This document shows positions 7,352-52,212 of a stretch of DNA of 64,000 nucleotides, in pieces. The position numbers and the translations under genes are program-made. Source of the DNA: Desulfobacterales bacterium (lineage in GTDB: Bacteria; Desulfobacterota; Desulfobacteria; Desulfobacterales; UBA5852). Positions within the stretch are counted from its first letter, which is position 1. Each line of letters begins with the position of its first letter. Location: NCBI GenBank assembly GCA_963674755.2, contig CAXXVS010000003.1:1856001-1920000 (forward strand), written 5' to 3'. Under the pieces are notes generated by a model, which was given only the letters and a program-made list of their open reading frames with translations, searched no databases and was not told the origin of the DNA.

Positions 7352-9592
7352 TCAGTGGATCGTTGGGGGCGCGATGCTGTATTTTTTTAGCTTGTTGTAA
7401 AGCGAACTACGGCTGATGCCCAGCTTATGTGCGGCCTGCTTCTTGTTCCAGTCGCATTCCGTCAGGGCATCGATAAGTTTTTCCTTTTCGGTCAGAGCAA
7501 TGGTGCGGCTCAAGGTTTTCGAAAGAACAGGCTGCTCGGCATCGGCTTGCTGGTGCTCAGCGATGCTGGGGGGCAAATCCGAAGGCGTAATGAGCGTTTC
7601 TTTGCAGAGCACGACCGCGTGCTCGATGCAATTTTCCAACTCGCGGACATTGCCCGGCCATCCGTAACCAAACAAATGACGCATGACCTCGGGCTCGAAT
7701 CCCTCGATGGATTTACCCTGTTCGGCGGCAAACCGTTTAAGAAAGTGCCTCGCCAGGAGAGGAATGTCGTTGCGCCGTCGGCGAAGGGTCGGCAGATTGA
7801 CCGGGATCACATTCAGACGGTAAAAGAGGTCTTCACGGAAACGGCCCTTCTGAACTTCGGTCACAAGATTGCGATTGGTGGCCGCCAGAACCCTGACGTC
7901 GACGCTCCGTGTCGTTTCGCCGCCCACCCGCTCAAATTTCCGGCTTTGGAGAATCCTGAGAAGCTTGATTTGGGCGGTAGATGAGATCTCGCCGATTTCA
8001 TCCAGGAAGACGGTGCCGCCGTCGGCCTGTTCGAAACGGCCGGGTTTCTGGCGGACAGCACCTGTAAAAGCGCCTTTTTCATGCCCGAACAGCTCGCTTT
8101 CCAACAGGGTGGCCGGGTAGGCCGAGCAGTTGATGACCATGAACGGCTTGCTGCGGCGCAGACTGCGTTCGTGAATGGCGCGGGCCACGAGTTCCTTGCC
8201 GGTTCCGCTTTCGCCCTGGATAAGAACTGTCGCATCCGAAGGCGCAACATCGTCGATCAGTTTGTAGAGTACCTGCATCTGGGGGTCGCGCCCGACCAAA
8301 CCCCCGAATCCGGACGTATGATCGAACTGGGCTTTCAAGGCCAAGACTTCCTCTTCCTGAAGAATTGTCCGGCGCAGGGCGCCGGCCCCCTGTTCCAGCA
8401 TCATCTGGAGCACGCTAAGCTCCTTGGTGATGCACTTGCACTCGCTCGGGCAGGCGACTGTCATAGCCCCCTGCAGTTCATCTTCATAATGGATGGGGAA
8501 AACGACGACGCTTTTGGCGTTGGCTGTCAGTCCCGCCTCCATTGGCAGAGGGATGGCCGGCGTGTCGCGAACGAAGGATGCCTTTTCGATCTGGCTGACG
8601 TAGCCGTAGGCGGCGCGGCTGGGTTCGCCATCCATTGTAACCAGTTTATCGGTGCTGAAGCGAAAGATCCGTTCCCCGCCGTTGCCAAACGCAAAAAGCT
8701 GCATGTTGCGGCAAGTGACGACATCCTGAAGCTTATGGACCAAGTAGCGGCAGACATCGCCAAGATTGGGCAGGACGCTTATTTCCCGCGAAATCTCGAA
8801 AGATGCCCTGATCTGCTGATGGGATCGATCCAGTTCGGCATTTTTGCGTTGCAATCGCTCGGCGTAATCGGTCAGCTTGCCGGTGTGCCCCTTGATGCGC
8901 AAGAGCATTTGATTGAAGGCCTGGGATAGTTTGGCAACCTCGATGTCGCCGGCGACGGGTACGTTGACGTCCAGGTTGCCTTCGTCGATCCTGTCGACCG
9001 TGTCGGCCAGCACTTGCAGCGGCCGCGTGATACGACGAATCAAGAAGTGGCTCAATAGAAGCGCAACCGCAAGGATGAGGAGGGTCAGCAGGCTCATCTG
9101 AATGCGCAGACCCATGATTTTCTGGCGGTAGGGTGTTTCGGAAACGCCTAGGCGGATGAAACCGGCCTTGCCCTCGAATATGGGCCAGGCCACGTCGAAA
9201 AAACGTTCCCCCTCTTCGTTTAGTACCCACCTCAGGCTGCCTTTGTCGCTTTCTTGAAAATCCTTGTTCGCAATCAAGCCCCTAGGAACGCCGTTGGGGA
9301 AGGTATGTGTTAATACTCGGTCGTCCCTGACCACGAAGATGTACGTGACAAAAGGGGTGCTGATCATCTGGTCCTCGATCAGCTTCTGGAGGGCCACACG
9401 ATCGTTGATGAGAATCTTGTCGGCGGCGGCCAGCGCCAGGTTGCGGGCGATGTTCTCGGTTTCGGCATAAGCATCGTGCATGATGCGTTCGCCATAATAG
9501 TGGGCCACCAACTGGGATGTCAGCGCCCCGATGCCGACAGCCACCAGGGCCACGGTCAGCAGCAGTTTTTTACTGAGGCTTCGCGGCAGCAT
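7352..9592 (-). CDS. Membrane-anchored sigma54-dependent activator (TM-periplasmic-TM-HAMP-GAF-like-AAA+-Fis HTH)
   Basis: Two TM segments; HAMP (ITRPL...LSQAFNQM); GESGTGKE; GAFTGA; FLDEIGE; WPGNVREL; C-terminal HTH. Confidence 0.9.
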   Translation of the reverse strand: MLPRSLSKKLLLTVALVAVGIGALTSQLVAHYYGERIMHDAYAETENIARNLALAAADKILINDRVALQKLIEDQMISTPFVTYIFVVRDDRVLTHTFPNGVPRGLIANKDFQESDKGSLRWVLNEEGERFFDVAWPIFEGKAGFIRLGVSETPYRQKIMGLRIQMSLLTLLILAVALLLSHFLIRRITRPLQVLADTVDRIDEGNLDVNVPVAGDIEVAKLSQAFNQMLLRIKGHTGKLTDYAERLQRKNAELDRSHQQIRASFEISREISVLPNLGDVCRYLVHKLQDVVTCRNMQLFAFGNGGERIFRFSTDKLVTMDGEPSRAAYGYVSQIEKASFVRDTPAIPLPMEAGLTANAKSVVVFPIHYEDELQGAMTVACPSECKCITKELSVLQMMLEQGAGALRRTILQEEEVLALKAQFDHTSGFGGLVGRDPQMQVLYKLIDDVAPSDATVLIQGESGTGKELVARAIHERSLRRSKPFMVINCSAYPATLLESELFGHEKGAFTGAVRQKPGRFEQADGGTVFLDEIGEISSTAQIKLLRILQSRKFERVGGETTRSVDVRVLAATNRNLVTEVQKGRFREDLFYRLNVIPVNLPTLRRRRNDIPLLARHFLKRFAAEQGKSIEGFEPEVMRHLFGYGWPGNVRELENCIEHAVVLCKETLITPSDLPPSIAEHQQADAEQPVLSKTLSRTIALTEKEKLIDALTECDWNKKQAAHKLGISRSSLYNKLKKYSIAPPTIH

Positions 9593-10547
9593 GGGATTTA
9601 CCTCCCGTCTGCAAAAAGCGATACATGGCCTTCACCGACGCGTACCAGGATTCCTTAGGCGTCACAAACCGCTCGATCATCAGCCTTTCGAGTATCCGTT
9701 GCCCTTCGTCGTCGCGGTGCATCGAGGTGACGATGCCCTGAATCTGCGTTTTCTCTTTTACGGGCAGTCCAGATGCGGCCACGAGTGGGGGGCTGCCGAA
9801 AGGCTTCGATTTCTTGATGATACTTGTAGCCTCGGTCAAACCGGGATTGACCATCTGGTAATAGTCCCACTTGTGGCCGTCTACAGCAGCGGCATCCACC
9901 AGACCTCTCGCTACAGCCTTGATGGAGTTGTCGTGGCTGTACGTATAGATTGTCTCTCGGAAAAAGGTTGCCGGGTTTTCGCCGATCTCAGCCAGCCAGA
10001 AGCGGGGCGTCAGAGACCCTGTGTTGGAGTCGGGGTCCGTGAAGGCGAACCCCTTGCCGCGCAGATCCTCAAGCATTTTATAGGGGCTGTCGGATTTGAC
10101 GATCAGATAGGATTGATAGGTCGGTAGTCCTCGGACTTGAGGGGTGGCGATGGCCTCGAACCCATATAGTTCCTTAGAGGTGGCATAGGGGCCGGAGCAG
10201 ATGAAAGCCAGGTCAAGTTCATTTTTTAAGAACAGCTCGTTGATCTCGCCATAAGTTTTGCGTTGTACCAACTCGATCGGTTGATTCATCCGGCCGGCGA
10301 TATAATCGAGTAGCGCTTGGTAATACTCGATCGTTTCTCTAGGCGAGATCATAGCCGCCACTGCAATTCTCAATGGTGCCTTGCCAGACTCCGCTCCAGT
10401 TGCGCGCACCACCTCGATGTGATCTTTGAAATCGACGTATTGATATTGGGGTTCGTTGCTGCAGCCGCCGAGCAAAACCATAACAAGCATAAAGGCGATT
10501 GACCGCAGGGTGGAAGAATGAATTCCGCAGGGGGCGACGGGCAGCAT
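9570..10547 (-). CDS. PhnD/AioX-like periplasmic substrate-binding lipoprotein
   Basis: Lipobox LLGGC; QRKTYGE, LAFICSGPY, FTDPDSNTG, YSHDNSI motifs; overlaps the activator start; true start may be internal. Confidence 0.85.
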   Translation of the reverse strand: MLPVAPCGIHSSTLRSIAFMLVMVLLGGCSNEPQYQYVDFKDHIEVVRATGAESGKAPLRIAVAAMISPRETIEYYQALLDYIAGRMNQPIELVQRKTYGEINELFLKNELDLAFICSGPYATSKELYGFEAIATPQVRGLPTYQSYLIVKSDSPYKMLEDLRGKGFAFTDPDSNTGSLTPRFWLAEIGENPATFFRETIYTYSHDNSIKAVARGLVDAAAVDGHKWDYYQMVNPGLTEATSIIKKSKPFGSPPLVAASGLPVKEKTQIQGIVTSMHRDDEGQRILERLMIERFVTPKESWYASVKAMYRFLQTGGKSHAAAKPQ

Positions 10548-15446: not shown

Positions 15447-16093
15447 TTAGGCTTGGGCGCTGAACCGCCCCCTGGCCAGAAGCCGCTTGAGCCCCTGCCG
15501 GGCCCAGTCCCGTATGGCCGGCAGCTGATCCAGCAGGGGCCGCACGGCCGCCACGTCGAACCGGTCGTAGGGCATGCCGAAGTGCACCTGCACCATCCGC
15601 CGCCGGAAGCTTTTGGGCAGCGACCGGTCCAGAAAGTCCCTGGGCCGCGCGCCCACCAGCATCACCTTGCAGCGGGGGCAGAAGATGAAGGGCGCGCCTT
15701 CGGGAGGGGCGGCCTCCAGGGGGCGGCCCGCCACCACGCGTCCGCGAAACCGGGCGCGGATGCCAGCTCCTCGAAGTGGGCCATGGCAAGGGCCAGCCTG
15801 CGGTTGGCCAGCGCGCCCCGGCGGGCCGGGTCCGCGAGCATGCCCGGGGAGATCTGCACGCATTCCCCCGGCCCGGCCAGGGCGATCATGGCCTTGATGA
15901 AGGCCCAGGTCTCGCCGATGGGCCCGGTGAGGGCCAGAAACCAGTCGAAGCGGTTGTCGGCCAGCCCCAGGGAGCCCGCGAACTCCTGGAGCCGGTCCAG
16001 GGCGGCGCGGTCGCCGCCGGTGACGTCGGCCAGGAATTGACTCCAAATCATCAGGGGGGCGGGGGAGTGGTAGAAAACGGTGGCGGTCATCAT
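15447..16093 (-). pseudogene. Degenerate P4/D5-type primase-helicase C-terminal domain
   Basis: WSQFLADVTGGD..LDRLQEFAG, then after a frameshift RRRMVQVHF...LPAIRDWARQGLKRLLARGRF; Walker A position degenerate. Confidence 0.6.
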
Positions 16094-16107
16094 GGCGCGG
16101 CCTCCTT

Positions 16108-16368
16108 TCAGGCGTCGGACCTTTCGGCCGGCGCTTCGAAAAGCTCCTCCCGCGTCACGCCCCAGATATCGGCGATGGCCGTCTGGATGTCGGCGTTGCG
16201 GCGGATGCCCTCGATATGGGTGGTGATGCAGGGGCGCGACACGTTCAGCCGCCGCGCCATGGCCGGCTGGGTGACGCCGGTGAGCTTGTGCAGGGCCTTG
16301 CCGATGTTGTTCAGCGGAAAGCCCAGATCTCTCAGGCAACTCACGGTTTCGGTGACTTGACGGTTCAT
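16108..16368 (-). CDS. Cro/Ner-like HTH regulator
   Basis: VTQPAMARRLNVSRPCIT HTH; divergent from a repressor remnant. Confidence 0.7.
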   Translation of the reverse strand: MNRQVTETVSCLRDLGFPLNNIGKALHKLTGVTQPAMARRLNVSRPCITTHIEGIRRNADIQTAIADIWGVTREELFEAPAERSDA

Positions 16369-16567
16369 GGTCGAAACCCCTTGTATCCTGTGTTACGGTG
16401 TGGTAATTTGAGCATCGTCTAATAAAAGCTCCAATGGCTGTTACTATTGGCTTTTCTTAGAAAGCCGACCTCCTATAAATCCCCATTTTGATCGCAACGA
16501 TTATAATTTCGCATCAAAGCTACTCGTATGAGTGATTTTTCCTTTAAAGGTGCAAACTACCTAATGA

Positions 16568-16859
16568 ATGGTGATGTTTTGCGGTAATGAGAAGCTAAAA
16601 TACTCGTCTGAGGGGCAGGGACAGAGTGGTGGGAAGAATATTGAAGATAATGCCTCACTTCCGGATGATATAGATGTCGAATTATTGGGCGACATTATTT
16701 GGGCGATTGAAAAGCGTTTGGAAGTGGAGAAACGCGTACTTGATCCGAACCAAAAAGCACGGGCGATAGGGCTTCTATACCTGCATTATCGGGAAAGTGA
16801 GAAGTCGGCCACGGAGAGACGAGGGGACGGTGGAATCCTACCTGAAGCTCGTGGGCTGA
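16568..16859 (+). pseudogene. C-terminal remnant of a phage repressor-like protein
   Basis: DVELLGDIIWAIEKRL...PNQKARAIGLLY, frameshift to TVESYLKLVG*; homologous to 35807..35983. Confidence 0.5.
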
Positions 16860-16878
16860 CCGCGCACAGGAGGGCAAC

Positions 16879-17625
16879 ATGCCGAAGCGCCTGAAGGTCT
16901 ATCGAGACCTTGGGGATATATGGGGAACATCTAAACCAGCAGATGGCGGCCCGCCTCCTGATCCTTCACCCGAACAATCACTTGAGCCGACCAACTCATC
17001 CTCTGATCCACCCCCAGAGCAGCCCGACTCACCCCCGGAAAGGGAAGCCAGTCACAGCCGCACCAGAAAGATCATCCTCAAAACACTTTCGCTTTCCACC
17101 GTCATCACCGTCTTGATCGTCATCATCGGCATTTACTCCGCCTTCAGCTTTTTCAATCCCTTTTCGAAAAATTCCACCGACAACCCCCTGGATAATTACC
17201 GGCCCTTCGCGCCCTCGCTGAAAGATATGGACACCCTGGCCGCCTACCAGCCGGAAAGGCTGGACATGCACTACGGGCGCATCCTGTCCCCAAAGCCGGG
17301 GGCCAGCAGCCCGCGCCATATCAGGATCACCGGCATCACCCGCAACAATTCCGAGGGCCATCACGTGGTCCTGGTGGTGGACGTGGAAAGCCAGCGCGTC
17401 TGCTTCCCCAAATGGCCCATCATCAAGCCTAACGCGGCTTTTCGCACGGAGATCTACGACGGCGGGCCGGAAGGGGGGTGCATGGTGGGGCTGTACGCGG
17501 TGGATGAGGAGTACTACGGGAAGATTTTGGAGTGGTTGAAGCAGGAACGGTTTGGGGGGGTGGGGTTGATGCCGTTGCGGTATCGGTTGGATGGGTTGAG
17601 AATTCGCTTAGATAAATATAAGTAA
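16879..17625 (+). CDS. Hypothetical single-pass membrane protein with Pro-rich N-terminus
   Basis: GGAGG RBS; one hydrophobic helix. Confidence 0.6.
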   Translation: MPKRLKVYRDLGDIWGTSKPADGGPPPDPSPEQSLEPTNSSSDPPPEQPDSPPEREASHSRTRKIILKTLSLSTVITVLIVIIGIYSAFSFFNPFSKNSTDNPLDNYRPFAPSLKDMDTLAAYQPERLDMHYGRILSPKPGASSPRHIRITGITRNNSEGHHVVLVVDVESQRVCFPKWPIIKPNAAFRTEIYDGGPEGGCMVGLYAVDEEYYGKILEWLKQERFGGVGLMPLRYRLDGLRIRLDKYK

Positions 17626-17661
17626 AATTATTTCGAATAGAGATAAAGGCGGAGGATTTAA

Positions 17662-18837
17662 ATGCATGGTTTTGATTATGAATCAATAGAAGATTTCAAA
17701 GAAGCGTGTTTGTATCAAAGGGAGAAATTATCGCCGGAAGATGTATTAGGAAGGATTTATACAGCTGACCAGCTTAGATATTTTTCAGAGAAAGAAGACT
17801 TGAATCTAATAGGATTTTCTACCGCAGGTTCGGGTCTGAAAGCAAGATACAAATTGGCTAAAGAGATAGCAAAAAGACTACCTATAGCAAAGATAGGTAT
17901 GCTATTATCGGAGATAGACCATGAACATTATTTTCGAATAATGAGTTTAAGAAAATTACCAAAGGAGAGACCCTTTGATTCAATCAGAAATTCAATTCGA
18001 CATCTATCAAATCAGAACATATCACTGAAAAACAATTTCAAAAGCTTGTTTAATGGAATAACACAGCCCGCAGGGAGGAATTGTAAACTTGAGTCAGTTA
18101 AAGAAGAGGATGACTGTTTAAGCTTTTTGTTTAGTTGTACAAGAGTACTTGCCATTCCTGAAAGTGGAGGTGCAAGCTACGAAGACTATTTCTTAGCAAG
18201 AATACCAGTCTTGATAAGAGTACTTTTTAACAAGTCACTTTTAGAAATTTCGATGCCCTTTTTCTTTGAACCACTTAAAGTAGATTCGAGATCGATTATA
18301 AATATTCCTGATAGATTTCAATTGATAGTTGAATCTGCCTTGTTAAAATTTATGAAAATTTTCCAATATGAATTTAAACCGGTAAATTTTCGGAAATTTA
18401 CAATGTTTTTAGAAACTGAGTATTCAGCTGAGGATTACGGGTGGCGGATAGAACCTTTAACTGAAGCTGCCTTTGATTTAACGCAGGGCGTTATACCTCT
18501 AAAAAATATTTTAACAAAATTTTCTAATAGCATTAATCGTGAGTGTGAGAGAAGAAAAATAAATCATCCAATTCAACAAATAGATTTATACAAATTGTTC
18601 AGAGCAATTAAAGAAGAAAGTTATACTTACTCTATGGTATTGAAAGCACAATTAGGGAAAAGAAAAGGCGATTATATTTTTTCGGTTCTATACGGCGCTC
18701 CCAATTCGAAATACTTTCCATTAATAGTTATCAATAAAAACAGAGAAAGCGTAGCAAAAAACATTTGGGAAGCTATGGCAGACTCTCAGAAAATGAGATA
18801 CAGAAATCCTTATAAGTTGACCAAACTTCTAAAATAG
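17662..18837 (+). CDS. Hypothetical protein, first gene of a putative three-gene defence operon
   Basis: 391-aa AT-rich ORF with GGAGG RBS; 3 bp from the next gene. Confidence 0.75.
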   Translation: MHGFDYESIEDFKEACLYQREKLSPEDVLGRIYTADQLRYFSEKEDLNLIGFSTAGSGLKARYKLAKEIAKRLPIAKIGMLLSEIDHEHYFRIMSLRKLPKERPFDSIRNSIRHLSNQNISLKNNFKSLFNGITQPAGRNCKLESVKEEDDCLSFLFSCTRVLAIPESGGASYEDYFLARIPVLIRVLFNKSLLEISMPFFFEPLKVDSRSIINIPDRFQLIVESALLKFMKIFQYEFKPVNFRKFTMFLETEYSAEDYGWRIEPLTEAAFDLTQGVIPLKNILTKFSNSINRECERRKINHPIQQIDLYKLFRAIKEESYTYSMVLKAQLGKRKGDYIFSVLYGAPNSKYFPLIVINKNRESVAKNIWEAMADSQKMRYRNPYKLTKLLK

Positions 18838-18840
18838 AAA

Positions 18841-19230
18841 ATGAGAATGATAAATTTAGAAATAGATTATAACAAAGTTGGATTAAATCACCAGGAAGGT
18901 GTTTCCATTTTAAATGCTATTAATAATCGAATTAAAACGCATCCTAATAAAGAAATTGTTATAAGCGACATAGCAGAAGCAGCATCTGAAACGGCAGATA
19001 AGGTTAAGAAAATATTGTTTCTTTTAATAACTTCAAGAAAAATAGAAGCCACTTTTTTGCCGAGACATAAGGTTTGCGGCTATGTGGTTGGGAGAGAAAG
19101 TAGATCTGAATTAGAAATACTACGTAAAATTGAAAATGAAGATCTAAGTTGGTGTCATAAATGCAATGCCCCAATAGAGGACATCAATGATATAGATATT
19201 CAGATAGTGTTTAGATATAATGAGGTGTAA
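18841..19230 (+). CDS. Small winged-helix/zinc-ribbon-like protein
   Basis: ISDIAEAASETADKVKKILFLL; HKVC and CHKC metal-ligand pairs; overlaps the next gene. Confidence 0.65.
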   Translation: MRMINLEIDYNKVGLNHQEGVSILNAINNRIKTHPNKEIVISDIAEAASETADKVKKILFLLITSRKIEATFLPRHKVCGYVVGRESRSELEILRKIENEDLSWCHKCNAPIEDINDIDIQIVFRYNEV

Positions 19231-20005
19231 TTTGGATATTGAAAATATTGCAACAATAAATGACTACGAAAAATTTATTGATCAATACGGCAATTCTGCA
19301 GGGGATTATGCTTTTGAATGGAGCATTGCAGTCAAGGCAGGTTGGAAGAAAAGGGAGTTCGATAAGCTATATAATAGCTATGTAATTTCCTGCAAAAAAG
19401 GAATTTTAGAAAAGCAATCAGCAGCTAAAATAAAGGGTGATCCACTTGAAGATCTCGCGAGATATTATTTGCAAATGGGTGGAATTGTACATGATATAAG
19501 TGAAATAAATGAAAAAGGCGTTTGGCAAATTGATGGTCAAGGAACTAAAAATACAACTGCAATCCTATTGTGTTGGGGTGAAGAATTATGTGCAAAAATA
19601 GGTGCTCAGTTATTTATGGAAGCAAAAAACCATAAGGAACCAATGAAAACCGAAGATTTTTCACATTATTATTCTAAAATGACCGAGCATGGCTGCCAAA
19701 CAGGTGTCGTTTTTTCAACCTCTGGTTATTCAGTGGGACATGGGAAGGGTATCGCTCCAAAAATTTACTATCATTACTTGAGAGGATATATTCATATTTT
19801 AATGAGCTTCTCATCAATATATAATACCGCTGTAAATGATATTCCCCCTTTAATTGTTTTACGGTTAGCAATAACCTATGCTACAAATAATAGCTATGTT
19901 AACGATAGAGAAATTCAATTCGAATATTCGAAAAAATACTGCCATTTACTTATTAATAATGAATTCGATCGGATAAACAAAATTGTTTACAAAAAAATCG
20001 TATGA
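19220..20005 (+). CDS. Mrr-like PD-(D/E)XK restriction endonuclease
   Basis: KGDPLEDL...QIDG...MEAKN...GVVFSTSG motif set. Confidence 0.8.
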   Translation: MRCNLDIENIATINDYEKFIDQYGNSAGDYAFEWSIAVKAGWKKREFDKLYNSYVISCKKGILEKQSAAKIKGDPLEDLARYYLQMGGIVHDISEINEKGVWQIDGQGTKNTTAILLCWGEELCAKIGAQLFMEAKNHKEPMKTEDFSHYYSKMTEHGCQTGVVFSTSGYSVGHGKGIAPKIYYHYLRGYIHILMSFSSIYNTAVNDIPPLIVLRLAITYATNNSYVNDREIQFEYSKKYCHLLINNEFDRINKIVYKKIV

Positions 20006-20066
20006 TTTTTAAATAGATGAATACAATAATCCAAAAACCAAAAAATTATGTGGTAATTTATATAAC

Positions 20067-20630
20067 ATGAGTACCAAGAGAGAAGATAAGGCGAGAAAAT
20101 ACCTTTCAGAAAAATTGTGTGATCTTTTTTACATTAAAGAAGAGGTAATAGGTTTCTGGCCCTTAGATGGTCGGCAACTTCGTCTTGATCTCTTACTAAG
20201 ACCAAAAGAAAAGGCTAAGTCTTTAGGATTTGACGTAGAAGCTATTGGTATAGAAATAAAAGACCCACAATCGAAAGAAAGTGTTAAAAAGTTACTTAAC
20301 TGTGTTGTTCAAGCATACACGTACACATTTTGCGAATTTGACGGAGTTAGACCTGCTTTTATTTTGCTGTATCCAGAAATCGAAAAATTTTTTGAACATG
20401 ACTGGATACACAAGTATTCTAAATCAAATAATGAAAAACCGTCTCATCGCGAAATAAACCTTTTAAGGAGACTAATGCAGAGAGCAAATATTGGTGAACT
20501 CATTATATCTGATGACCAATATACCTTTAAGTTTGCGTTCGCTCGGTTTTTTGATTCAAGGCGTGGAAGATCTAAAGTAAAAGGCCTTGGTTTAAACCGA
20601 TATGTTGGTTCACGAAAGACGAAAAGTTAA
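20067..20630 (+). CDS. Putative PD-(D/E)XK nuclease
   Basis: EEV...RLDLLL...GIEIK...QAYTY motifs. Confidence 0.65.
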   Translation: MSTKREDKARKYLSEKLCDLFYIKEEVIGFWPLDGRQLRLDLLLRPKEKAKSLGFDVEAIGIEIKDPQSKESVKKLLNCVVQAYTYTFCEFDGVRPAFILLYPEIEKFFEHDWIHKYSKSNNEKPSHREINLLRRLMQRANIGELIISDDQYTFKFAFARFFDSRRGRSKVKGLGLNRYVGSRKTKS

Positions 20631-20668
20631 TCTGATATGCTTCTAACACATATTTGTGAGGGTGATAT

Positions 20669-21172
20669 ATGAAGTTTATTACAGAATGTTTAACAGCAAA
20701 TAAAACTTATGTCGAAAAGTTTTTTTACATCTTTTCCAGAGCGGAATATGCTCTTAAAGTATCTGGCTATCTTGAACCAAAAAGCTATGCATCTGCCAAC
20801 TGGCAATCGTTTGCCAAGGCTATTCGTGACAAATTTGACGAAAATAGAGCCGTTGAGTTAAAAGAATCTGTTAAATATTTAAAAGACTACCCTCCAAGGA
20901 AACAAGTTAATCGGGAAGGCCATCTGGAATGGGATGATTCACCACTTGGCAAGAAAACCCCTAATGTTCATTATGTTGTGACAATGATATGTCGAATTAG
21001 AAATAATCTTTTTCATGGAGGGAAGTTTTCCCATGGTTCTTCAAAAGAAATATCTCGAAATACGATGCTGATTAAAAACGCAACAAATATCCTTTGTGAA
21101 CTCATGAGATTGGACGAGCAAGTTAGTCACTATTTCAATCAACCATTAGATACTGAAGATGGAAAGGAGTAG
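20669..21172 (+). CDS. HEPN-domain putative RNase
   Basis: FSRAEYALK and RNNLFHGGK (RxxxxH). Confidence 0.7.
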   Translation: MKFITECLTANKTYVEKFFYIFSRAEYALKVSGYLEPKSYASANWQSFAKAIRDKFDENRAVELKESVKYLKDYPPRKQVNREGHLEWDDSPLGKKTPNVHYVVTMICRIRNNLFHGGKFSHGSSKEISRNTMLIKNATNILCELMRLDEQVSHYFNQPLDTEDGKE

Positions 21173-21298
21173 AATCAGAGAGAAGACCAAACGGGGTCGC
21201 ATCTTAACTATTAATTTTTCATAGAGCCAAGGACCATTCAGGGGACGTTCTGAACTTATAAACTACAAAAAAAATGAAGATCGAACGGGGCATATTGA

Positions 21299-21866
21299 AT
21301 GAAGTTGTTCTGCCTGTTTCTCGGAATTCTCATCGCCTTCGGATTCATCATAAACGAGCTGACCCTCTCCCTGGTCTACCTGATGATGCCTGACGGATCG
21401 ACGGTCGTCTTTTCATCCGAAACATTGCTTTATGCCATAAAACTTAAAATGTGGATGGGGACTTCAGCCAGCCTAACTCTCATTTTCGCCGTGGGGCTTT
21501 TTTGCAAACAGTACGGGCCGTCATTCCGATGGGTCGTCATGCCGGTAATCATGCTGTCCGGTTCGGTTATATATACCGCCTTGACGATGTATAAGTTGCA
21601 CACGTGGGTCGCATCAAGCGGCTCATACGGCTACATCAATGCGCCGATTGACATACGCTCTGTACCTGACGTCGATACCGATCGTGGCACTGGTAGAAGG
21701 GGCAATTTTAATTCTTTGGTCGCTGCTCCTCGATTGGTGGCATAAAAACGATGAACCGGAATCAAGCGACGTCGCGGATAAGATTGAAGCTTTACCGGCG
21801 AACGACACGCCGGTTTCTAATCCTCCGCCCAGCACGGAAAGCAAGGAAATAGCAGTATGCGGATAA
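21299..21866 (+). pseudogene. Frameshifted multi-pass membrane protein
   Basis: Hydrophobic reading continues from ORF 21299..21745 into the frame of 21639..21866 near 21660. Confidence 0.5.
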
Positions 21867-22069
21867 GAGTATCCCAGACCAGCGACCGGATCGTAGTCAA
21901 AATCGAAAACGGCGGCGAGATCGAGATCTCGTTCAACGCAGCGGAAGGGGAGGGCGGCCCAAGCCAGTGCCGGATCTCATACAACGGCCGGCAGGTTGCG
22001 AGCCATGAATCCGAGCAGATGGGCAGGATGGAGTTTTGGGATGTGCCGCTGTCGGGAGGAATAGGATAG
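21857..22069 (+). CDS. Small hypothetical protein
   Basis: 70-aa ORF with AAGGA RBS, coupled to the previous gene. Confidence 0.4.
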   Translation: MRIRVSQTSDRIVVKIENGGEIEISFNAAEGEGGPSQCRISYNGRQVASHESEQMGRMEFWDVPLSGGIG

Positions 22070-22248
22070 TGTTCATCCATAAATGGCATCTTTCGGCCCC
22101 TGGCGGCATTCTCGCTCGTTTTCAATCCTCGAAATAGCGGACTATTCCTCCGGTTAAAAAACGCGCTCGGGCCTTGCCAGGAACCAAAACCCACCATTTA
22201 TGGACGGACACCAGGCTAGAACACAATCTTTCATGAAAGGAGATCGGG

Positions 22249-22473
22249 ATGGACAATTACCACATCACAAAAGACGGCGGTAAGTGGAAGTTCCAAAAGG
22301 AAGGCAATCAGCGGGCATCCAAAACAGCCGAGACCAAAACCGAGATCATCAAACAGATGAGGGACTACATGAGCGATAAAACGGGCTCTGTGAAGATCCA
22401 CAAACAGGATGGAAAGATCCAGGAAGAGCGGACCTACCCGAGGTCGGCCGATCCGAGCAGGAGCAAGGGGTAA
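22249..22473 (+). CDS. DUF2188-like small protein
   Basis: YHIT..GKW..EGNQRAS...KIHKQDGKIQEERTY...DP..SKG; AAGGAG RBS. Confidence 0.8.
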   Translation: MDNYHITKDGGKWKFQKEGNQRASKTAETKTEIIKQMRDYMSDKTGSVKIHKQDGKIQEERTYPRSADPSRSKG

Positions 22474-26944: not shown

Positions 26945-28015
26945 TTACGATAATTTTCTTACCTTATCATTTAATGACTCGTAAAGAATTGGTGAAACTA
27001 GATCCATCCACGATGCAGTTTGGTAAAGTGATGACAGAAGTATACTATGTATATCCATTGGGTGGTTTTTATATTCTTTTAGTACATGTTTTGTAATATT
27101 CATAAACCTTTGCCAAGCAGGAGGATGAGTTGAAAATGAAATCTTCTCTCCTACTATCATTTGATAAACATCTTCCTTGATATTTAAAAGATAAAAAAAA
27201 ATGTTTACCGCATGAAATATGTATGCATATTTGTGATATTCGTATCCTTCATCGAATTTAAGATGTGGGAATAAATCGAGACTTATCATCCAGCTAACAG
27301 CAAGTTGATCAGCTTCAAATTCTTGATTTTGCATTTTTTCAAAAATTGTTAGGTCTCCTTCCGTCGATTCATTCTTAAGCTCTTTAGCGGTCAAGTGGCC
27401 GGCTATTGCATGCATAAATTCATGCATCAAGATAAATTTTTCCATATGAGATAGGAAAATAGACCTTAAAATATCTGCTTTTTTATCAATGGATATTGGA
27501 ATATTTCTCGATAAAAGTGGTATATTATTTTTTTCATACTCTATAAATGAATCACTTAGAAGAGATATGCATTCATCAAAACTCAATTGAGTATTAATGA
27601 AAAATCTATCAATAAATGCATTATTATTTTTATCGTAATTTATATGACAATGCAGATGAGACAATAATTTAGTAAACTGGTTCAAAAAAACAAAAAGACC
27701 TGTGTTTAGAAGAAATATATGGCCTTTATTGGTCCTTGCATAATAAGCATTAAATTCACATGTAGGATATTCACCGGCAAAAATGGGTACGTCAAAATTT
27801 TTACCAGCATTTAAAATGGAATTCCGAATATCTTCACAGTAATTAGATAGGATCCAATTAAAAGAATTTTCAATAGGCGGTATTTCGAAATCGTGTCCAT
27901 AAGTTTGGCGATATTGTTCGTTTAATAATTCAGAATTTTGCAATTTGGTTTCAGATAGATTGCTATTTTTCAAAAATTTTAGATATTCATCTTTTAAAGA
28001 ATTTTTATCGCTCAT
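26945..28015 (-). CDS. HExxH metallopeptidase, Lit/peptidase U49-like
   Basis: FNAY, ILMHEFMHAIAGH, QEFEADQLA, THPPAWQR; very AT-rich. Confidence 0.7.
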   Translation of the reverse strand: MSDKNSLKDEYLKFLKNSNLSETKLQNSELLNEQYRQTYGHDFEIPPIENSFNWILSNYCEDIRNSILNAGKNFDVPIFAGEYPTCEFNAYYARTNKGHIFLLNTGLFVFLNQFTKLLSHLHCHINYDKNNNAFIDRFFINTQLSFDECISLLSDSFIEYEKNNIPLLSRNIPISIDKKADILRSIFLSHMEKFILMHEFMHAIAGHLTAKELKNESTEGDLTIFEKMQNQEFEADQLAVSWMISLDLFPHLKFDEGYEYHKYAYIFHAVNIFFYLLNIKEDVYQMIVGEKISFSTHPPAWQRFMNITKHVLKEYKNHPMDIHSILLSSLYQTASWMDLVSPILYESLNDKVRKLS

Positions 28016-33294: not shown

Positions 33295-33741
33295 ATGACA
33301 TTATTTACCATCGGCTACGAGGGGCTCGATCAGCGGCAATTCATGGCACACCTGACCCACCATGATGTGGATGTGGTGGCAGATGTGCGCAAGCTTCCGG
33401 TGAGCCGAAAACGTGGCTTTTCAAAAACAGCGCTGGGGGAAATGCTCAAAGCGCACAATATCAGCTATCTTAATTTCCAGGATTTGGGCGCCCCCAAGCA
33501 TCTCCGGGAGGAACTCTATCGATCTGGTGACTACCAGAGCTTCTTTCTACAATACCGGGACAGCATTGCCGATAATCAGGACGATCTCAAGGCGATCCAC
33601 GCTCTAATTTGTTCCGGCCGAAACGTCACTCTGCTCTGCTTTGAGCGGGATCCCAAAAAATGCCACCGCAAAGTGGTGGCTCAAGAGATAAAAAAAATCG
33701 ACGGAAATGGCCTGAAGGTTAATCACATCGTCCCTATCTAA
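33295..33741 (+). CDS. DUF488-family protein
   Basis: LFTIGYEG, DVRKLPVSRKRGFSK, LLCFERDPKKCHR. Confidence 0.9.
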   Translation: MTLFTIGYEGLDQRQFMAHLTHHDVDVVADVRKLPVSRKRGFSKTALGEMLKAHNISYLNFQDLGAPKHLREELYRSGDYQSFFLQYRDSIADNQDDLKAIHALICSGRNVTLLCFERDPKKCHRKVVAQEIKKIDGNGLKVNHIVPI

Positions 33742-34535
33742 GTGAATAGAGCCATCTGCGCGGTCGCGCGTTTGGGCGGGTAAAAAAATCCAAGGGCACA
33801 GAATATCTTTGGGTATTTAGCCATATTGCCCAGAATGATATGAGTATCACGATTCTCATTGAAAATGTCTCTGTGGATCTTATCCTTGATTTTCGCCTCC
33901 CAATTAGGGTCATACCTTACCCGCCTGTATAGCTGACCAAACTCCCAGTCGAGGATGCTCATTTTGTGCCCTCCGCAAGCAGGGTCGCTGCATGAAAATT
34001 CGATCGATATCCGAATGGGTAGGATATAAAGATCCTTTTTTTCCTCAAACATATCGATCTGACTTATTACACTATCCTTCTTAGTGGTCGCCCCGGCCAC
34101 TTCGTCCTCTTTCCTGGGTTCTATCAACACTCGTTTGAGCATCTTCGGCTTGACCAGTCCCAGGGAGGTCCTTTTATCGACCTGGGCATCACGAAGGGCC
34201 TCAACCGATGGATAAATATTATGCTCATTAAGAATATATGTGGATCGTTCGCTCCAATCATTACCTGGCTCAATAATATCGCCTAGTTCAATGGAGTCCG
34301 GATCAATCGTGTAACTTTCGGGTCGGGGATCCGCTGTTGCCTTATAAATGGTTGCCCTAATCCACTGGTATTTTTTAAACTGTTGTTTTCCTTCAAGATA
34401 GCGGAACCTGATGGGATAAAGGCGTACCAGCGACCGTGACTCAGCCAAAATGCCGGCAGTGCAAACGGTTTCAGTATATTTCCGGCTAATTTCGGGATAC
34501 GTTTTGACAACGATCAGAATGTCCTTTTTGGCCAT
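33738..34535 (-). CDS. Conserved hypothetical protein of the type found beside DUF488 genes
   Basis: VKTYPEISRKYTETVCTAG...RLYP...DPRPES...DWEFGQLY; stop overlaps the DUF488 stop. Confidence 0.7.
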   Translation of the reverse strand: MAKKDILIVVKTYPEISRKYTETVCTAGILAESRSLVRLYPIRFRYLEGKQQFKKYQWIRATIYKATADPRPESYTIDPDSIELGDIIEPGNDWSERSTYILNEHNIYPSVEALRDAQVDKRTSLGLVKPKMLKRVLIEPRKEDEVAGATTKKDSVISQIDMFEEKKDLYILPIRISIEFSCSDPACGGHKMSILDWEFGQLYRRVRYDPNWEAKIKDKIHRDIFNENRDTHIILGNMAKYPKIFCALGFFYPPKRATAQMALFT

Positions 34536-34604
34536 AGCAACCTTTCCTGGTGACCCACAGAGGAGAGTGGTGAGTTAATTAATAACAATTAAGGTGCGAC
34601 CCTC

Positions 34605-35630
34605 TTAGTCCTCTATTTTTTCTTCTGCCGACACAACAACTTCGGTGACTTCGTATGTCCGTGATCCTTTGAAACTTAGCCATGGACCAACCTCTTTTTG
34701 TGAAACCAACGGTCCAGTATTTTTTGACGGCAAGGATATTTCTGGGCCCCTGAATAGAACAACGTTTTTTCCGCCATATCGTAGGCTGCTGCTAAACTGC
34801 ATTCCGTTGATATAGAAAGGATTGTTTTCCGTATGACACATCAGGTCTTTGAAGTCCCATAATCGCAAAAATTCAGTGAATGCTTGTGTTGGTACATATT
34901 CGATTTCTTGGTCCATTGGTCTTATCGGTCTCGAAATATCGGCGACGAAATCGCGGATAAATGAGACCCATCTTTCATAATTATATGAGTAGTCCTCACA
35001 GAAAATGCTTGGTGCCTCTTGTGTCTTTCCTGACAAATCAATAACTGTTAGAGTCTCATTTGTCTCGAATTCTCCAACAACGACAGCTTCCCCAACGCTT
35101 GGCCTTAATTCGCTTATACAAGTCTCTGGTTCTAATGCACCATAAAAAAATGATATTCCAGCAGGGCTCATCCTGTTATTACAGGCAATCATAGGTGGTG
35201 GGCTTGTTAAGTCTTCATGCTCATATTTTTTGTCGGATTTTAGTATTCTCGCCCTGTAAATCGTTCTGCCTTGATCGAGCATGTTGAAATGTGTGTTGGC
35301 CAAATCGCTGACCAAAGATTTCATGAATTCTGATGGCTTAAATAAATCATAATCGGGCTCAACTTCATTCAAGAACGCGGTGTACCTTCGATTGGTCTTT
35401 ATTATTTTACAGAATTTTTCCCAATGATATATTTCATCTGATTCGCCCCTTGAAGGGCCATATGGGTCTCTTTGAACATAGTGCCCTATCTCATCCGGGA
35501 CAGCCTCGTTAATGAATTTGGCTGAGTCATTTATTTTTTCGCTGAATATCTCTTCTTCCCACATTAAAATCTCGTAAAGAGTATCTGGTGTAATATCGTA
35601 TCCATCATCAGCCGAACAATAGCCAACCTG
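34605..35630 (-). pseudogene. RES-domain protein, N-terminally truncated
   Basis: YRAR...NRMSPAGISFFYGA...E...YVPTQ...FSSS; first about 20 codons of the ORF derive from GC-rich flanking DNA. Confidence 0.7.
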
Positions 35631-35806
35631 GTTTACCGACCACGACCTGGTTGGCCTGGCCGGCGATATCGCCGATATCGACGGTCTTACCATTCCCGCT
35701 CGGTTGACCTAATGCGGGTTCGGCGTCTTTCAGGATTCTTTCGAGTCTTTCCCTGCGGTCTCCTTCGCTCATGGGGCCCCCTTTGCAAGGGCAGCGCGAT
35801 GCGCGA

Positions 35807-40102: not shown

Positions 40103-40370
40103 ATGCGGCAAGTCCCGGATGAAGGCTTCCTTGAACCCGCCGGCCTTCTTGCCGCGGTAGCGCAGGGCCAGGCGCAGGAACCCGCCGCGGGTCATGACGT
40201 AGGCCCTGCGGGTTTCGTTCTTTTTGTCCCGATAATCAACCGGTCCAAAATTGGATCGGTTAAAATCGTTAGAAACATCAAGTGCTTAGATATCTCGGAT
40301 GACATGTCCGTGCTTCTTGCCAAAGGACTCGGCCACGGCCAGGCTGGTGGTGACGGGGGTGTTGTGGTCC
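40103..40370 (-). pseudogene. Rha-family fragment
   Basis: Nucleotide blocks matching TPVTTSLAVAESF and AYVMTR..FL.LALRYRGKK of the adjacent gene. Confidence 0.7.
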
Positions 40371-40434
40371 TGAACCGACTACGCTCATTCCTTCGATTGG
40401 ATTCCTGGTTGAACTGCTCCGCGAACCGAGCGGG

Positions 40435-40989
40435 TTATTTGCCGCGGTAGCGCAGGGCCAGCTCCAGGAACCCGTCGCGGGTCATGACGTAGGCCTTCTG
40501 CGGACGGTTCCATTGGTCCGTGTAGGAGGTCGCTCCAAAATTGGAGCGACCAAAATCCTCTGTAACATCAAGCCCTTCGATGTCACGAAGGACATGCCCG
40601 TGCTGCTTGCTGAAGGACTCGGCCACGGCCAGGCTGGTGGTGACGGGGGTGTTGTCGGCGTCTAAAACGACGAGCTTCTCCATCCGGTTGAACTCCCGGA
40701 TGAAGCTCTCCCGGAACCGCTTGGCCTTCTTGCCGCGGTAGCGCAGGGCCAGGTCCAGGAACCCGTCGCGGGTCATGATGTAGGCCTTCTTCTGACGGTT
40801 CCATTTATCCGTGTAGGAGATGAGCCCAAATTTGGGCTCACCTATATCCTCTGTAACATCAATAGCTTCGATGTCACGTAGGACATGCGTGTGCCGCTTG
40901 CCGAAGGACTCGGCCACGGCCAGGCTGGTGGTGACGGGGGTGTTGTCGGCGTCTAAGGTGACCAAGGAACATAGGGGATCCTGGGTCAC
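40435..40989 (-). CDS. Rha-family phage regulatory protein with tandem duplicated domain
   Basis: TTSLAVAESF.K.H.HVLRDIE...MTRDGFL occurs twice. Confidence 0.85.
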   Translation of the reverse strand: MTQDPLCSLVTLDADNTPVTTSLAVAESFGKRHTHVLRDIEAIDVTEDIGEPKFGLISYTDKWNRQKKAYIMTRDGFLDLALRYRGKKAKRFRESFIREFNRMEKLVVLDADNTPVTTSLAVAESFSKQHGHVLRDIEGLDVTEDFGRSNFGATSYTDQWNRPQKAYVMTRDGFLELALRYRGK

Positions 40990-41667: not shown

Positions 41668-44600
41668 TTATCCAAAAACTACATCAACGGATTTTACCGC
41701 TGGGATTTCGAGTAAATCGCTTTTGAGCTTCTCGCCCACGTCAACCCTCAAATCATCGACAAGGAGGGCAATATTTTGTGAGCAGTTATCCCCACCATTA
41801 TCATCATGTAAAAAAACTTTAACGGCACCCGGGTGTTCTTCAAGTACCTTGATCAGTTCTTCGGCTGAGGATTGCACGAGGCCTTCTTTTTGGTCTATAA
41901 ATACGTGCAAGCTTTGGGCAATGTCTGATACAGCCTCATCTATGGTCTTAACGGTCCTTACCACCATTTGGTTCCTGCCATTGCGATGCTCTACTGCTCC
42001 AGAAAAATACAGCGTTTCGCTGAGACTTAGCTTAGGGCGAAATAAATAATAACTTGGCATGAACATTACGGCCTCGATCGTCCCAAGCGCATCTTCGAGG
42101 GTTATAAAACACATGTTTTTCCCTGTTTTTGTCTTTATGTCTTTAACAGCTTGGACGTTTCCGATAAATCGAACAGTCGCCCTGTCGCGTGCGAGAGCGA
42201 ATTCCTTGCTCCCAGTACACCCCATCGTTTTGATAATCCCCTGAAGCGCGCGATTAGGATGGTCTGATAGATAGAACCCCAAGGCTTCTTTTTCAGCCTG
42301 CATAAAATCAGACACTTTCACGCTGTCATTCGTTTTGCTCAGCTCTGATAAAAGAACTTGCCGTGAAAAACCCGTTGAATCGAAAGCCCCGCTTTTAACA
42401 AGGGATTCGATAACCCGTTTGTTTACAAGTCTACTATCCGTGCGTTTTCTAAAATCAGTTAGTGTCCTAAAAGGAGCGTCCTCCCTCGCCTTTAGGATGT
42501 TCTGCACAGCGGGTTCTCCTACATGTCTGATTGCCGTAAGGCCATAGCGAATTGCGCCGTCATCGATGGAAAACTGTTCACCGCTAAAGTTAACGTCGGG
42601 GGGTAAAACCGGAATTTCGTGGCTGCGACACTCGGCCATGTATTTGACGACGCCGTCGGTGGAATGCATTTCACTGGTCAGCAGGGCGGCCAGAAACTCC
42701 ACCGGGTAGTGGGCTTTCAGGTAAGCCGTCTGATAGGCAATCAGCGCATACGCGGCGCTGTGGGACTTGTTGAACCCGTAGCCGCCGAACTTCTCCATGA
42801 GGTCGAAGATGCGCTTGGCTTTGTCCTCGGGGATCTGGTTCTCCTGGGCTCCGGCCATGAAGGAGTCCCGGTGCTCAGCCATTTTCTCAGCGATTTTCTT
42901 GCCCATGGCCTTGCGCAGGTCGTCGGCCCTATCCATCGAGTAATTGGCCAGTTCGGCCGCGATTTTCATGACCTGTTCCTGATAGAGAATGACCCCATAG
43001 GTCTCCTTCAGGATCGGTTCCAGTTGTGGAACGCTGTAGACCACCGGCTTGCGACCGCGCTTGCACTCCACGAAATCGTCCACCATGCCGCTGTCCAAGG
43101 GACCCGGCCGGTAAAGAGCCAAAAGCGCCGTGATATCCTCGAATGAGGCCGGCTTCAGGCGCACCACCAGCTCCTTCATGCCCGTGCTTTCCAATTGGAA
43201 TACCCCCGTGGTGTCGCCGTTGCACAGGAGGTTGTAGGTCTCCCGGTCGTCGAGATCGAGGTCGGCCATGTCCGGTATGGGCTTGCCCTGGTCAGCCAGC
43301 AGCGAGAGGGTCTTGGCAATTACCGTTAGGTTGCGCAGCCCCAGGAAGTCAAACTTCACGAGCCCCGTCTTCTCGACATGCTTCATGTCGAACTGGGTAA
43401 CGACTTCCCCCTTTTTCCCCCGGTATAATGGAAGGTACTCAGTCAGCGGCTTGTCGCCAATGACGGCCCCGGCGGCATGGGTGGAAGCATGCCGCGGCAG
43501 TCCCTCCAGAACCCGACAAATTTGAAGCAACTCTTTGATTTCCGGACGGGTGGCGGCCAGTTCGTTGAACTTGGGCTCATGGAGAATCGCGTCGTCCAGG
43601 CTGATGTTGAGGACATCCGGCACCATCTTGGCGATGGCGTCAACCTCCCGCAAGGAAATCCCTAAAGCACGTCCCACATCGCGAATGACCGCACGGGCTT
43701 TAAGATTACCAAAGGTGATGATCTGGGCGACGTAGTCGCCGCCGCCGTACTTATCCACGACATACTTGTAGACCTGGTCGCGGCCGTTGATGCAGAAGTC
43801 CACGTCGATATCCGGCATGCTGATGCGGGCCGGATTGAGAAACCGTTCGAAGATCAACCCGTGCTCAATGGGGTCCAGATCGGTGATGCCCATGGCATAA
43901 GCCACCATACTGCCTGCGGCCGAGCCGCGCCCGGGTCCCACCGGGATGCCGTTGTCCTTGGCGTAGCGGATGAAGTCGGCCACGATCAGGAAATAGCCGG
44001 AAAACCCCATTTCCTTTATAACTGATATCTCGTAGTCCAGCCGCTCGTTGTAGACGGATTGATCGAGGTCCGCCTGTTTTTCGAGGATCTTGGCCATGCG
44101 GCCGCGAAACCCCTCGCGCACCGTGTGCTCGAAGAGGTCCTCGGGGGGAATGTCTTCAGGGGCCTGGAATTTGGGAAAGTGGTAGGAAAAATCGAATTCG
44201 TAGGCGCAGCGCCGGGCGATATCGAGTGTGTTGGAGACGGCGCCGGGATAATCGGCGAAGGAAGCCGCCATCTCCTCGGGCGACTTGAAATAGAGCTGGT
44301 CCGTGCTGAAGCGAAAGCGGTTGGTCTCGTTGACGGTTTTGCCGGTCTGGATGCACAGCAGGACGTCGTGGGCGCGCACGTCCTCTTTATGGAGGTAGTG
44401 GCAGTCGTTGCTGGCCACCAGCGGAATGGAAAGCCGCTGACTCATGTCCCACAACGTCCGGTTGACCGTCTCCTGGATGTCGATGCCATTGTTTTGGACC
44501 TCGAGGTAGAAGCGGTTCTCTCCGAACAGTGCCTGGTACCAGCGCGCCGCCGCATCGGCCTGGTCAATGTGGCCGTTTTTGATGTGCATGGGAATTTCCC

Positions 44601-50371: not shown

Positions 50372-50701
50372 ATGAACACGCCGAAAGGCCGGGAAGGCCA
50401 GGTCGCCGGGCGCAAGCGTCCGCGCAAGGGGCGGCCGGCAGCAGACAAAATGCCTCCAATGTATTATACTCAACGCGAAGTGGCCGACCTGTTCCGGGTG
50501 AGCCAGGGCACCGTCATCAAGTGGCGCGGCCTGGGCTACCTGGAATACCTGCGGCCGCCGGGGTCCAACCGGGTGCTCTACACCGTAGCGAGCGTGGAGC
50601 GCTTCCAGGACCAATTCACCCGCCGGGAGGAGGTGACCAAGCCACCGATTGATATCAGCAGTTGCAGGCGTGTCGCTCCAGCTAAGGACTGGAGGTTATG
50701 A
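50372..50701 (+). CDS. Excisionase-like HTH protein
   Basis: YTQREVADLFRVSQGTVIKWR; ATGA overlap with the integrase. Confidence 0.8.
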   Translation: MNTPKGREGQVAGRKRPRKGRPAADKMPPMYYTQREVADLFRVSQGTVIKWRGLGYLEYLRPPGSNRVLYTVASVERFQDQFTRREEVTKPPIDISSCRRVAPAKDWRL

Positions 50702-51843
50702 TGGCCAAAAAGAACCTGAATCACCACATGTTCAAGCGGAGCGGCACATGGTATTTTCAGATGATGGTCAAGGGACGGCCCTACAAGAAGGCCCTGAGCA
50801 CGGACGTCTCCCAGGCGAGGCTGCTGCGGGACCAGTTCCTGCACAAGATCCGCTGGGGGCATCTGGACGTCCAGCGCGAGCGCAAGGTCTTGGGGGAGGT
50901 CGCCAAGCAGTGGATCCGGCTTGAGGAGATGAAGTTGCAGCCGTCCACCCTGAGGGACTACCGCGGCATCATGAACTGTCACGTGCTGCCGCATTTTGGT
51001 AACTGGTACATCGACGAGATCCGGCCGGTCGATGTGGAGGAGTTCATGGCCACCCGGACCTGCGGCGCCAAGCGGATCAACAACATCCTGTGCCCGCTGC
51101 GCTCGCTTTTTCGCATGGCCAAGAAGAACGACTATGTCGAGCGCAACATCATGCTCGATGTGGAAAACCTCTCCGTGGACAGGCCGCACATCAGCCCACT
51201 GTCGATGAAGGAGGCCGCAAGCTTTCTTGATGCGATCGAGGACACCATCTACCGCAACTTCTTCGTGGTCGCGTTTTTCACCGGCATGCGGCTGGGGGAG
51301 CAGACGGCGCTCAAGTGGCGCGAGGTGGACTGGGAGCGCAAGTCCATCTCGATCGTGGAGTCACGCGTGATGGGTATCGAGGGCCGGCCCAAGACCAAGG
51401 GGTCCTATCGAGACATCGACATGCTGCCCGTGGTCGAGGCGGCGCTCAAGGACCAGCGCAAGCAGAACCGGGCCAAGTCGCGCTACGTATTCCTCAATAA
51501 CGACGGCAAGCCCGTCGACGGCGAGACGCTGCGGAAGACCACCTGGACGCCGGGGTTGAATCGCGCCGGTTTGGAATACCGCTCCATGTACCACACGCGG
51601 CACACCTTCGCGACCTTGATGCTGTCTTCCGGGGAGAACATGGGCTGGGTGCAGCGGATGATGGGGCATGCGTCGCTCAAGATGATCCAGGAGCGCTACT
51701 ACCGGTACATCCCGAATCTGACCCATGCCGACGGCAGCGCGTTTGCGAAAAAGTTCGGCACGGACCTTGCTCGAGTTACCCCAAATCTACCCCATAACGA
51801 CGAAAGGGAACACCTCGCCCAGGTAATCCCCTTAAATCGTTAG
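50698..51843 (+). CDS. Tyrosine integrase
   Basis: TGMRLGE, PKT, YHTRHTFA, MGH, Y; ends 17 bp from the tmRNA 3' end. Confidence 0.95.
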   Translation: MMAKKNLNHHMFKRSGTWYFQMMVKGRPYKKALSTDVSQARLLRDQFLHKIRWGHLDVQRERKVLGEVAKQWIRLEEMKLQPSTLRDYRGIMNCHVLPHFGNWYIDEIRPVDVEEFMATRTCGAKRINNILCPLRSLFRMAKKNDYVERNIMLDVENLSVDRPHISPLSMKEAASFLDAIEDTIYRNFFVVAFFTGMRLGEQTALKWREVDWERKSISIVESRVMGIEGRPKTKGSYRDIDMLPVVEAALKDQRKQNRAKSRYVFLNNDGKPVDGETLRKTTWTPGLNRAGLEYRSMYHTRHTFATLMLSSGENMGWVQRMMGHASLKMIQERYYRYIPNLTHADGSAFAKKFGTDLARVTPNLPHNDEREHLAQVIPLNR

Positions 51844-51860
51844 TAATTTTTGTCGAGAAA

Positions 51861-52212
51861 TGGTGGAGGCGGCGGGAGTCGAACCCGCGTCCGAAAGCAT
51901 TCCACATGGGCATCTACATGCTTATCCCGAACTTTGAGTGTCAGCCCTCGGGGCCCTTTCGGGCGAGGTCCCTTCGGACTTATCCTGATTAGAGTTTCGC
52001 GCCTGTCCCATCAGGCAAGGACAATTGCTATCCCGCTAGTCGACGCCCTTTCCAGACCCGCAGGAGTAGCCTGGAAGGACGGTAGCTATGCAGCTACGGC
52101 GTAGTTATAATCGTCTGCGATTATATTTAGTTTTCCCGTCGTTTTACGAGCGGACAGGAAGCTCGACATGCAGCCGACGCTTCTTTGCCCCCGTCGAACC
52201 CGTTTCGCCCCC
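51861..52212 (-). ncRNA. ssrA: tmRNA
   Basis: 5' GGGGGCG pairs with 3' CGCCTCC-ACCA (G3-U); T-arm GTTCGAC; tag ADDYNYAVAA* at 52086-52118; smpB nearby. Confidence 0.97.

What the first reader, a model, noticed from the sequence alone, without database searches (positions are those of the whole stretch)
17662..20005. Tightly coupled three-gene nuclease operon: candidate anti-phage system
Seen: an intact AT-rich block amid decayed GC-rich phage DNA, encoding an unknown 391-aa protein, a 129-aa wHTH/Zn-ribbon-like protein and a 261-aa Mrr-like nuclease, joined by a 3-bp gap and an 11-bp overlap, with no methyltransferase. Inference: a sensor-adaptor-nuclease defence system. From memory the layout resembles Azaca (zacABC), but I cannot verify homology, so it may be a distant variant or new.
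Basis: partly seen in the sequence, partly recalled or inferred. Interest (0 to 1): 0.8.

Follow-up and report, generated by a model that had tools for sequence, protein, structure and literature searches.

The report
DNA-clamp, zinc-wing, nuclease defence trio
Three genes that sit together in the same order in several distantly related bacteria encode a predicted DNA-clamping protein, a predicted zinc-bearing DNA-binding protein and a likely DNA-cutting enzyme, so they likely form an untested anti-virus system that matches no catalogued one we could check.

The parts
17662..18837 (+). A, 391 aa: small N-terminal helical (LEM/SAP-like) domain plus a two-lobed RdgC/RexA/CENP-N-like body; predicted homodimer; likely DNA clamp and sensor
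18841..19230 (+). B, 129 aa: winged helix with a zinc-ligand insert (H76, C79, C105, C108) in the wing; likely DNA-binding adaptor
19220..20005 (+). C, 261 aa: Mrr-like PD-(D/E)XK nuclease (E77, D105, E134-A-K136, STSG 166-169); likely effector
   Evidence: Invariant in 5 of 5; Mrr_cat weak in 3 of 5 members, best E 0.014, and E 0.0026 for the viral copy; nearest ESM Atlas clusters are Mrr_cat, score 0.96
16108..16894 (.). Context: remnant phage-type switch (Cro-like 16108-16368 on -, a 108-aa ORF 16568-16894 on +, possibly a repressor remnant) upstream of the cassette
   Evidence: PHROG repressor hits E 0.002-0.04 for the Cro-like ORF; no hit for the 108-aa ORF; its reading as a repressor is inference
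20067..21172 (+). Context, not part of the conserved unit: 187-aa ORF with a D41...E63xK65 nuclease-like motif and 167-aa ORF with an RNNLFH HEPN-like motif (both motifs read by eye)
   Evidence: phrog_19013 E 1e-30 for the second; not found in 6 relative loci, but only one of them has more than 600 bases downstream
50698..52212 (.). Context: tyrosine integrase next to the tmRNA 3' end, the right boundary of the ~88-kb island that carries the cassette
   Evidence: Integrase Pfam hit; tmRNA 51861-52212; 29-bp att copy at G000:C3:1820097

Best explanation
The three genes likely form one anti-phage system, in which a predicted dimer of A would clamp DNA, the predicted winged-helix/zinc protein B would help engage the DNA or hold the nuclease, and the likely nuclease C would then cut DNA. 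Shown: the genes, their conserved order, the A-B fusions, the conserved catalytic and zinc residues, and the absence of a methylase beside them. Predicted: the folds of A and B and the A dimer. Inferred: an ABC complex; C held silent until the clamp meets an abnormal DNA state (ends, breaks or phage replication intermediates); then degradation of phage and probably host DNA (abortive infection), as shown for GAPS4.
Confidence: 0.6

Rival explanations
1. A modification-dependent (type IV, Mrr-like) restriction system: B's winged helix or A reads methylated or otherwise modified phage DNA and C cuts it, sparing the host.
For: C is closest to Mrr_cat; no cognate methylase. Winged-helix domains serve as modification readers in several type IV enzymes (recalled, no call).
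Against: No SRA, EVE or similar reader was detected. A's fold relatives bind DNA non-specifically. B's structural matches are generic wHTH.
Confidence: 0.17
2. A toxin-antitoxin or addiction module, or a weapon between mobile elements: C is a constitutive toxic DNase held by A/B, stabilising the island or excluding rival elements rather than lytic phages.
For: Tight coupling and mobile, patchy occurrence; position behind a phage repressor.
Against: A large clamp-like protein is atypical for an antitoxin (general knowledge). In the analogous GAPS4 neither subunit is toxic alone (PMC13748975 discussion).
Confidence: 0.13
3. A DNA repair, recombination or regulatory module of the mobile element (an RdgC-like recombination modulator with a structure-specific nuclease), with no defence role.
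For: RdgC itself modulates RecA, and RexA also biases the lambda switch.
Against: Rare, AT-rich and sporadic across unrelated hosts and elements. No match in 50,697 phage records or, for A, in 72,556 plasmid records, so it is not a common core gene of those elements.
Confidence: 0.1

Closest known systems
GAPS4 (GAPS4a nuclease + GAPS4b ring; PMC13748975, abstract, two thirds of Results and Discussion read)
   Same: A ~370-390-aa protein with a helical N-domain, predicted to dimerise, partnered with a PD-(D/E)XK nuclease; no methylase; carried on mobile elements; Atlas feature neighbours (0.93).
   Different: Three genes rather than two; nuclease last rather than first; canonical D...EAK rather than HGxD-SxK; extra wHTH-Zn subunit; no HMM or profile similarity.
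Lambda RexAB and RexAB-like systems (PMC11077077 and PMC12894663, passages read)
   Same: RexA shares the RdgC fold and binds DNA as a dimer. Lambda rexAB lies behind cI (recalled), as the viral copy L031 does.
   Different: The effector is a nuclease, not the RexB membrane protein; RexA is not among the listed fold hits; A has an extra N-terminal helical domain.
RdgC; CENP-N/Chl4 and Iml3
   Different: 8-13% identity; these are housekeeping proteins not operon-linked to a nuclease.
Rst_3HP (PMC9122126 Table S2A part 2 read; preprint passages)
   Same: Three-gene prophage system of once-unknown proteins; by eye its Hp1 and Hp2 begin like GAPS4a and GAPS4b.
   Different: By eye only: nuclease-like gene first, sizes roughly 330/360/230 aa, and no ~130-aa HxxC...CxxC protein.
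Azaca (ZacABC; bioRxiv 2025.07.10.664194 and 2024.10.26.620412, passages read)
   Same: Three genes, one of them a nuclease.
   Different: Azaca has a PLD nuclease, an SF2 helicase and DUF6361; the motif and HMM tests here found none of these.
Mrr-type type IV restriction endonucleases
   Same: Catalytic domain type of C; no cognate methylase.
   Different: Below the Pfam cut-off (12.6 of 21 bits); always found with A and B in the loci seen; modification dependence untested.

Membership tests
Azaca | SF2 helicase/NTPase subunit with Walker A | tested here: not met
   Definition; no Walker A or DExD/H motif in A, B or C; no Pfam helicase hit
Azaca | PLD-family nuclease (HxKxxxxD) | tested here: not met
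   No HKD motif; C has E/D/ExK
Azaca | DUF6361 subunit / Zac HMM hits | tested here: not met
   0 PADLOC families for A, B, C at E<=1; no DUF6361 in Pfam scans of A, B, C or 16 A members
GAPS4 | Two genes, nuclease (a) before ring protein (b), in tandem or fused | tested here: not met
   A-B-C with the nuclease last in 6 non-redundant loci including the window; GAPS4 layout seen
GAPS4 | GAPS4a with HGxD-SxK motif | tested here: not met
   C has QID...EAK; hhalign of the C profile with a 3-sequence GAPS4a alignment: prob 0.2%
GAPS4 | GAPS4b sequence family (NF047934) | tested here: not met
   No hit for P0001 or 8 relatives, while the E. coli control scores 5e-111; hhalign prob 0.2% (template of 3 sequences)
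GAPS4 | Ring-forming dimer fold shared with GAPS4b | tested here: inconclusive
   A dimer predicted and Atlas similarity 0.93, but no GAPS4b model could be built for comparison
GAPS4 | DNA-damage-triggered DNA degradation and phage protection | not testable with these tools
   Needs bench work
RexAB-like | RexA/RdgC-fold DNA-binding sensor | tested here: inconclusive
RexAB-like | Conserved downstream multi-TM effector (RexB) | tested here: not met
   The downstream genes are soluble B and C in all loci; the upstream one-TM ORF was not found in 6 relative loci
Rst_3HP | Homology to Hp1, Hp2, Hp3 and their order | tested here: inconclusive
   Compared by eye only with the published table: order and sizes differ; no alignment was run and no DefenseFinder HMM was available
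Mrr-like type IV REase | PD-(D/E)XK Mrr_cat domain | tested here: inconclusive
   Motif invariant; Pfam below cut-off; Atlas 0.96; no structure model of C
Mrr-like type IV REase | Cleavage depends on DNA modification | not testable with these tools
   Needs biochemistry

The most novel reading that the evidence does not exclude
An undescribed three-part immune system in which an RdgC/RexA-type DNA clamp gates an Mrr-type DNase through a winged-helix/zinc adaptor. It would make the RdgC-fold clamp a reusable phage-DNA sensor that is coupled to different effectors (RexB pore, GAPS4a-type DNase, Mrr-type DNase), and would give a direct nuclease read-out for what such clamps sense.
Probability: 0.4. 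Interest if true: 0.72.

Novelty: new variant of a known kind. Interest (0 to 1): 0.55.

Why it matters
What RexA- and GAPS4b-type clamps actually sense is still open: the GAPS4 paper could not reconstitute cleavage or name the DNA species. A small soluble system with a canonical nuclease site, a separable adaptor and natural A-B fusions would make that question testable in vitro. It would also add a defence system from anaerobic deltaproteobacteria-type hosts that PADLOC 2.0, NCBIfam 20 and Pfam miss. The limits are that the family is rare and the general design (DNA sensor plus PD-(D/E)XK nuclease) is known.

Tried and rejected
Family scans: PADLOC, Pfam, NCBIfam and PHROGs gave nothing above cut-off for A, B or C. 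PDB sequence searches gave 0 hits for the A and C profiles and only noise for B. The BFVD fold search had no E<=0.001 match. RexA (8TWQ) was absent from the listed fold rows; this is an absence only. tblastn found no relative in plasmids (one E 0.7 noise hit) or phages. Viral scans with the A1 and A3 profiles found 0 of 42 and 0 of 164 candidates; A4 found 1 of 31. The word-based search with C found only itself. The deeper A profile added 2 proteins and did not reach the Bacillota clusters named by the Atlas. The GAPS4b HMM over 401 phylum genomes gave 11 weak matches and none over cut-off; the three inspected were unrelated genes. Three weak C-profile hits were two other restriction-nuclease-like ORFs without A or B and one sensor protein; dropped. 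Promoter and terminator scans were at chance level (15 vs 14.1; 5 vs 4.5). No RNA holder was listed. Earlier scan notes: nothing in 3 look-ups. Paper searches for a description of this system found none. The library lacks most subscription journals, bioRxiv supplements were closed, and DefenseFinder HMMs and large candidate lists could not be checked, so a prior listing is not excluded. One paper id recalled from memory was wrong (irrelevant paper). The modularity-network preprint had no matching passage.

Full report
Observation. The three ORFs, the 3-bp gap and the 11-bp overlap are as reported. They are 31-33% GC in a genome of 57-59%. Shuffles of the block never gave a 261-codon open frame (0 of 500; 4 of 500 reached 129). 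A contig from a public run matches 15500-22095 without a difference (possibly the source sample). The AT-rich block continues to about 21200 with two more ORFs that were not found beside the trio elsewhere (little downstream DNA was available in most loci).

Setting. A tyrosine integrase (50698-51843) abuts the 3' end of tmRNA (51861-52212), and a 29-bp copy of that end lies about 88 kb away, which delimits an island. The island holds several IS elements, a PDC-M19 pair, a PDC-S16 gene and a HEPN/RES gene. Three methylase families have no hit in it. Just upstream of the cassette lies a weakly Cro-like ORF.

Conservation. A has 16 hits by word search and 51 by profile over 1.84 billion representatives; it was found in 2 of 401 genomes of the phylum, the host included. 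Nine loci carrying A were fetched. Seven show A-B-C (L001, L002, L003, L004, L007, L008, L031); L007 and L008 are identical to L004, so five are non-redundant. Two end inside B: L005, which is 99% identical to L003, and L006, where B stops after 69 codons near the contig end. Named hosts are Desulfobacterales, Syntrophobacteraceae, Syntrophaceae and Babeliaceae MAGs. Identities to the window are about 35-49% for full-length A, 30-35% for B and 39-47% for C. Two proteins of 524 and 526 aa are A-B fusions; their neighbourhoods could not be fetched. In viral contig L031 the trio follows D5 primase, CII, Cro-like and cI-like genes, and A and C each carry one in-frame TAA. No methylase hit is adjacent in 5 of 5 genomes checked; the nearest is 14 kb off in G403; three of those contigs end close behind C.

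Mechanism. Most likely (0.6) is a clamp-adaptor-nuclease defence complex. A dimers would load on DNA, B (fusable to A's C-terminus) would add DNA contact or dock C, and C would be unleashed by an abnormal DNA state during infection. Gene linkage and residues are shown, folds and the dimer are predicted, and the complex, trigger and defence are inferred from GAPS4, which is a heterotetramer triggered by DNA damage (PMC13748975; abstract, Results parts 1-2 of 3, Discussion and supplement rows read). Rivals are modification-dependent restriction (0.17), an addiction or inter-element weapon (0.13) and repair or regulation (0.10).

Comparison. Azaca is excluded: it needs a helicase, a PLD nuclease and DUF6361 (passages only; the original description was not read). 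GAPS4 is the best functional analogue but fails on gene number, order, catalytic motif, HMM and profile tests; a remote fold relationship of A to GAPS4b remains open. RexAB lacks the nuclease. Rst_3HP differs by eye in order and sizes. Eight paper searches found no description; of their listings, only the papers cited here and one preprint were opened. Subscription papers, bioRxiv supplements and DefenseFinder models were out of reach and may bear on novelty.

Verdict. A real, conserved, rare three-gene unit; a new variant of the DNA-sensor-plus-nuclease kind of defence system; untested. Interest 0.55.

Noticed in passing
window 20067-20630 and 20669-21172 (+): Two more AT-rich cargo genes with no Pfam, PADLOC or NCBIfam hit of note: a 187-aa protein with a D...ExK nuclease-like motif and a 167-aa protein with an Rx4H HEPN-like motif (phrog_19013, E 1e-30); possible stand-alone defence genes.
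   Followed up: partly
window 33295-35693: PDC-M19A/B candidate defence pair (DUF488 plus partner, convergent) beside a HEPN_RES_NTD1/RES gene.
   Followed up: partly
window 50698-52212 and G000:C3:1820097-1820125: An ~88-kb island integrated at tmRNA with a 29-bp att repeat; it carries a second DnaE (41668-45033, 80% identical to a copy on C2), a Toprim primase, an AAA/DUF2201 module and molybdopterin-oxidoreductase-like genes (the last read by eye).
   Followed up: partly
window 26945-28015 (-): 356-aa ORF at 30% GC between IS elements, with no Pfam or PADLOC hit.
   Followed up: partly
window 22249-22473 (+): DUF2188 / PDC-S16 small gene.
   Followed up: no
window 16879-17625 (+): 248-aa GC-rich ORF with a proline-rich N-terminus and one predicted membrane segment (by eye) directly before A; no family hit, not found in relative loci.
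   Followed up: partly
L031:7424-8155 and 8670-9776: Further unlabelled AT-rich cargo behind the viral copy; the first begins with an FxDxLGF motif recalling nucleotide-cyclase-like domains (recalled, no Pfam hit).
   Followed up: partly
PMC9122126 Table S2A against L017: By eye, Rst_3HP Hp1 and Hp2 begin like GAPS4a and GAPS4b, suggesting that the two named systems are related; no alignment was run.
   Followed up: no
ESM Atlas results: The nearest clusters of both A (372 aa, 594 members, no Pfam) and C (232-251 aa, Mrr_cat) are mostly Bacillota, hinting at a larger distant branch that could not be fetched.
   Followed up: partly
window 40110-40956: An internal direct repeat (about 526 bp, 82% identity) in the Rha-family gene region.
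   Followed up: no
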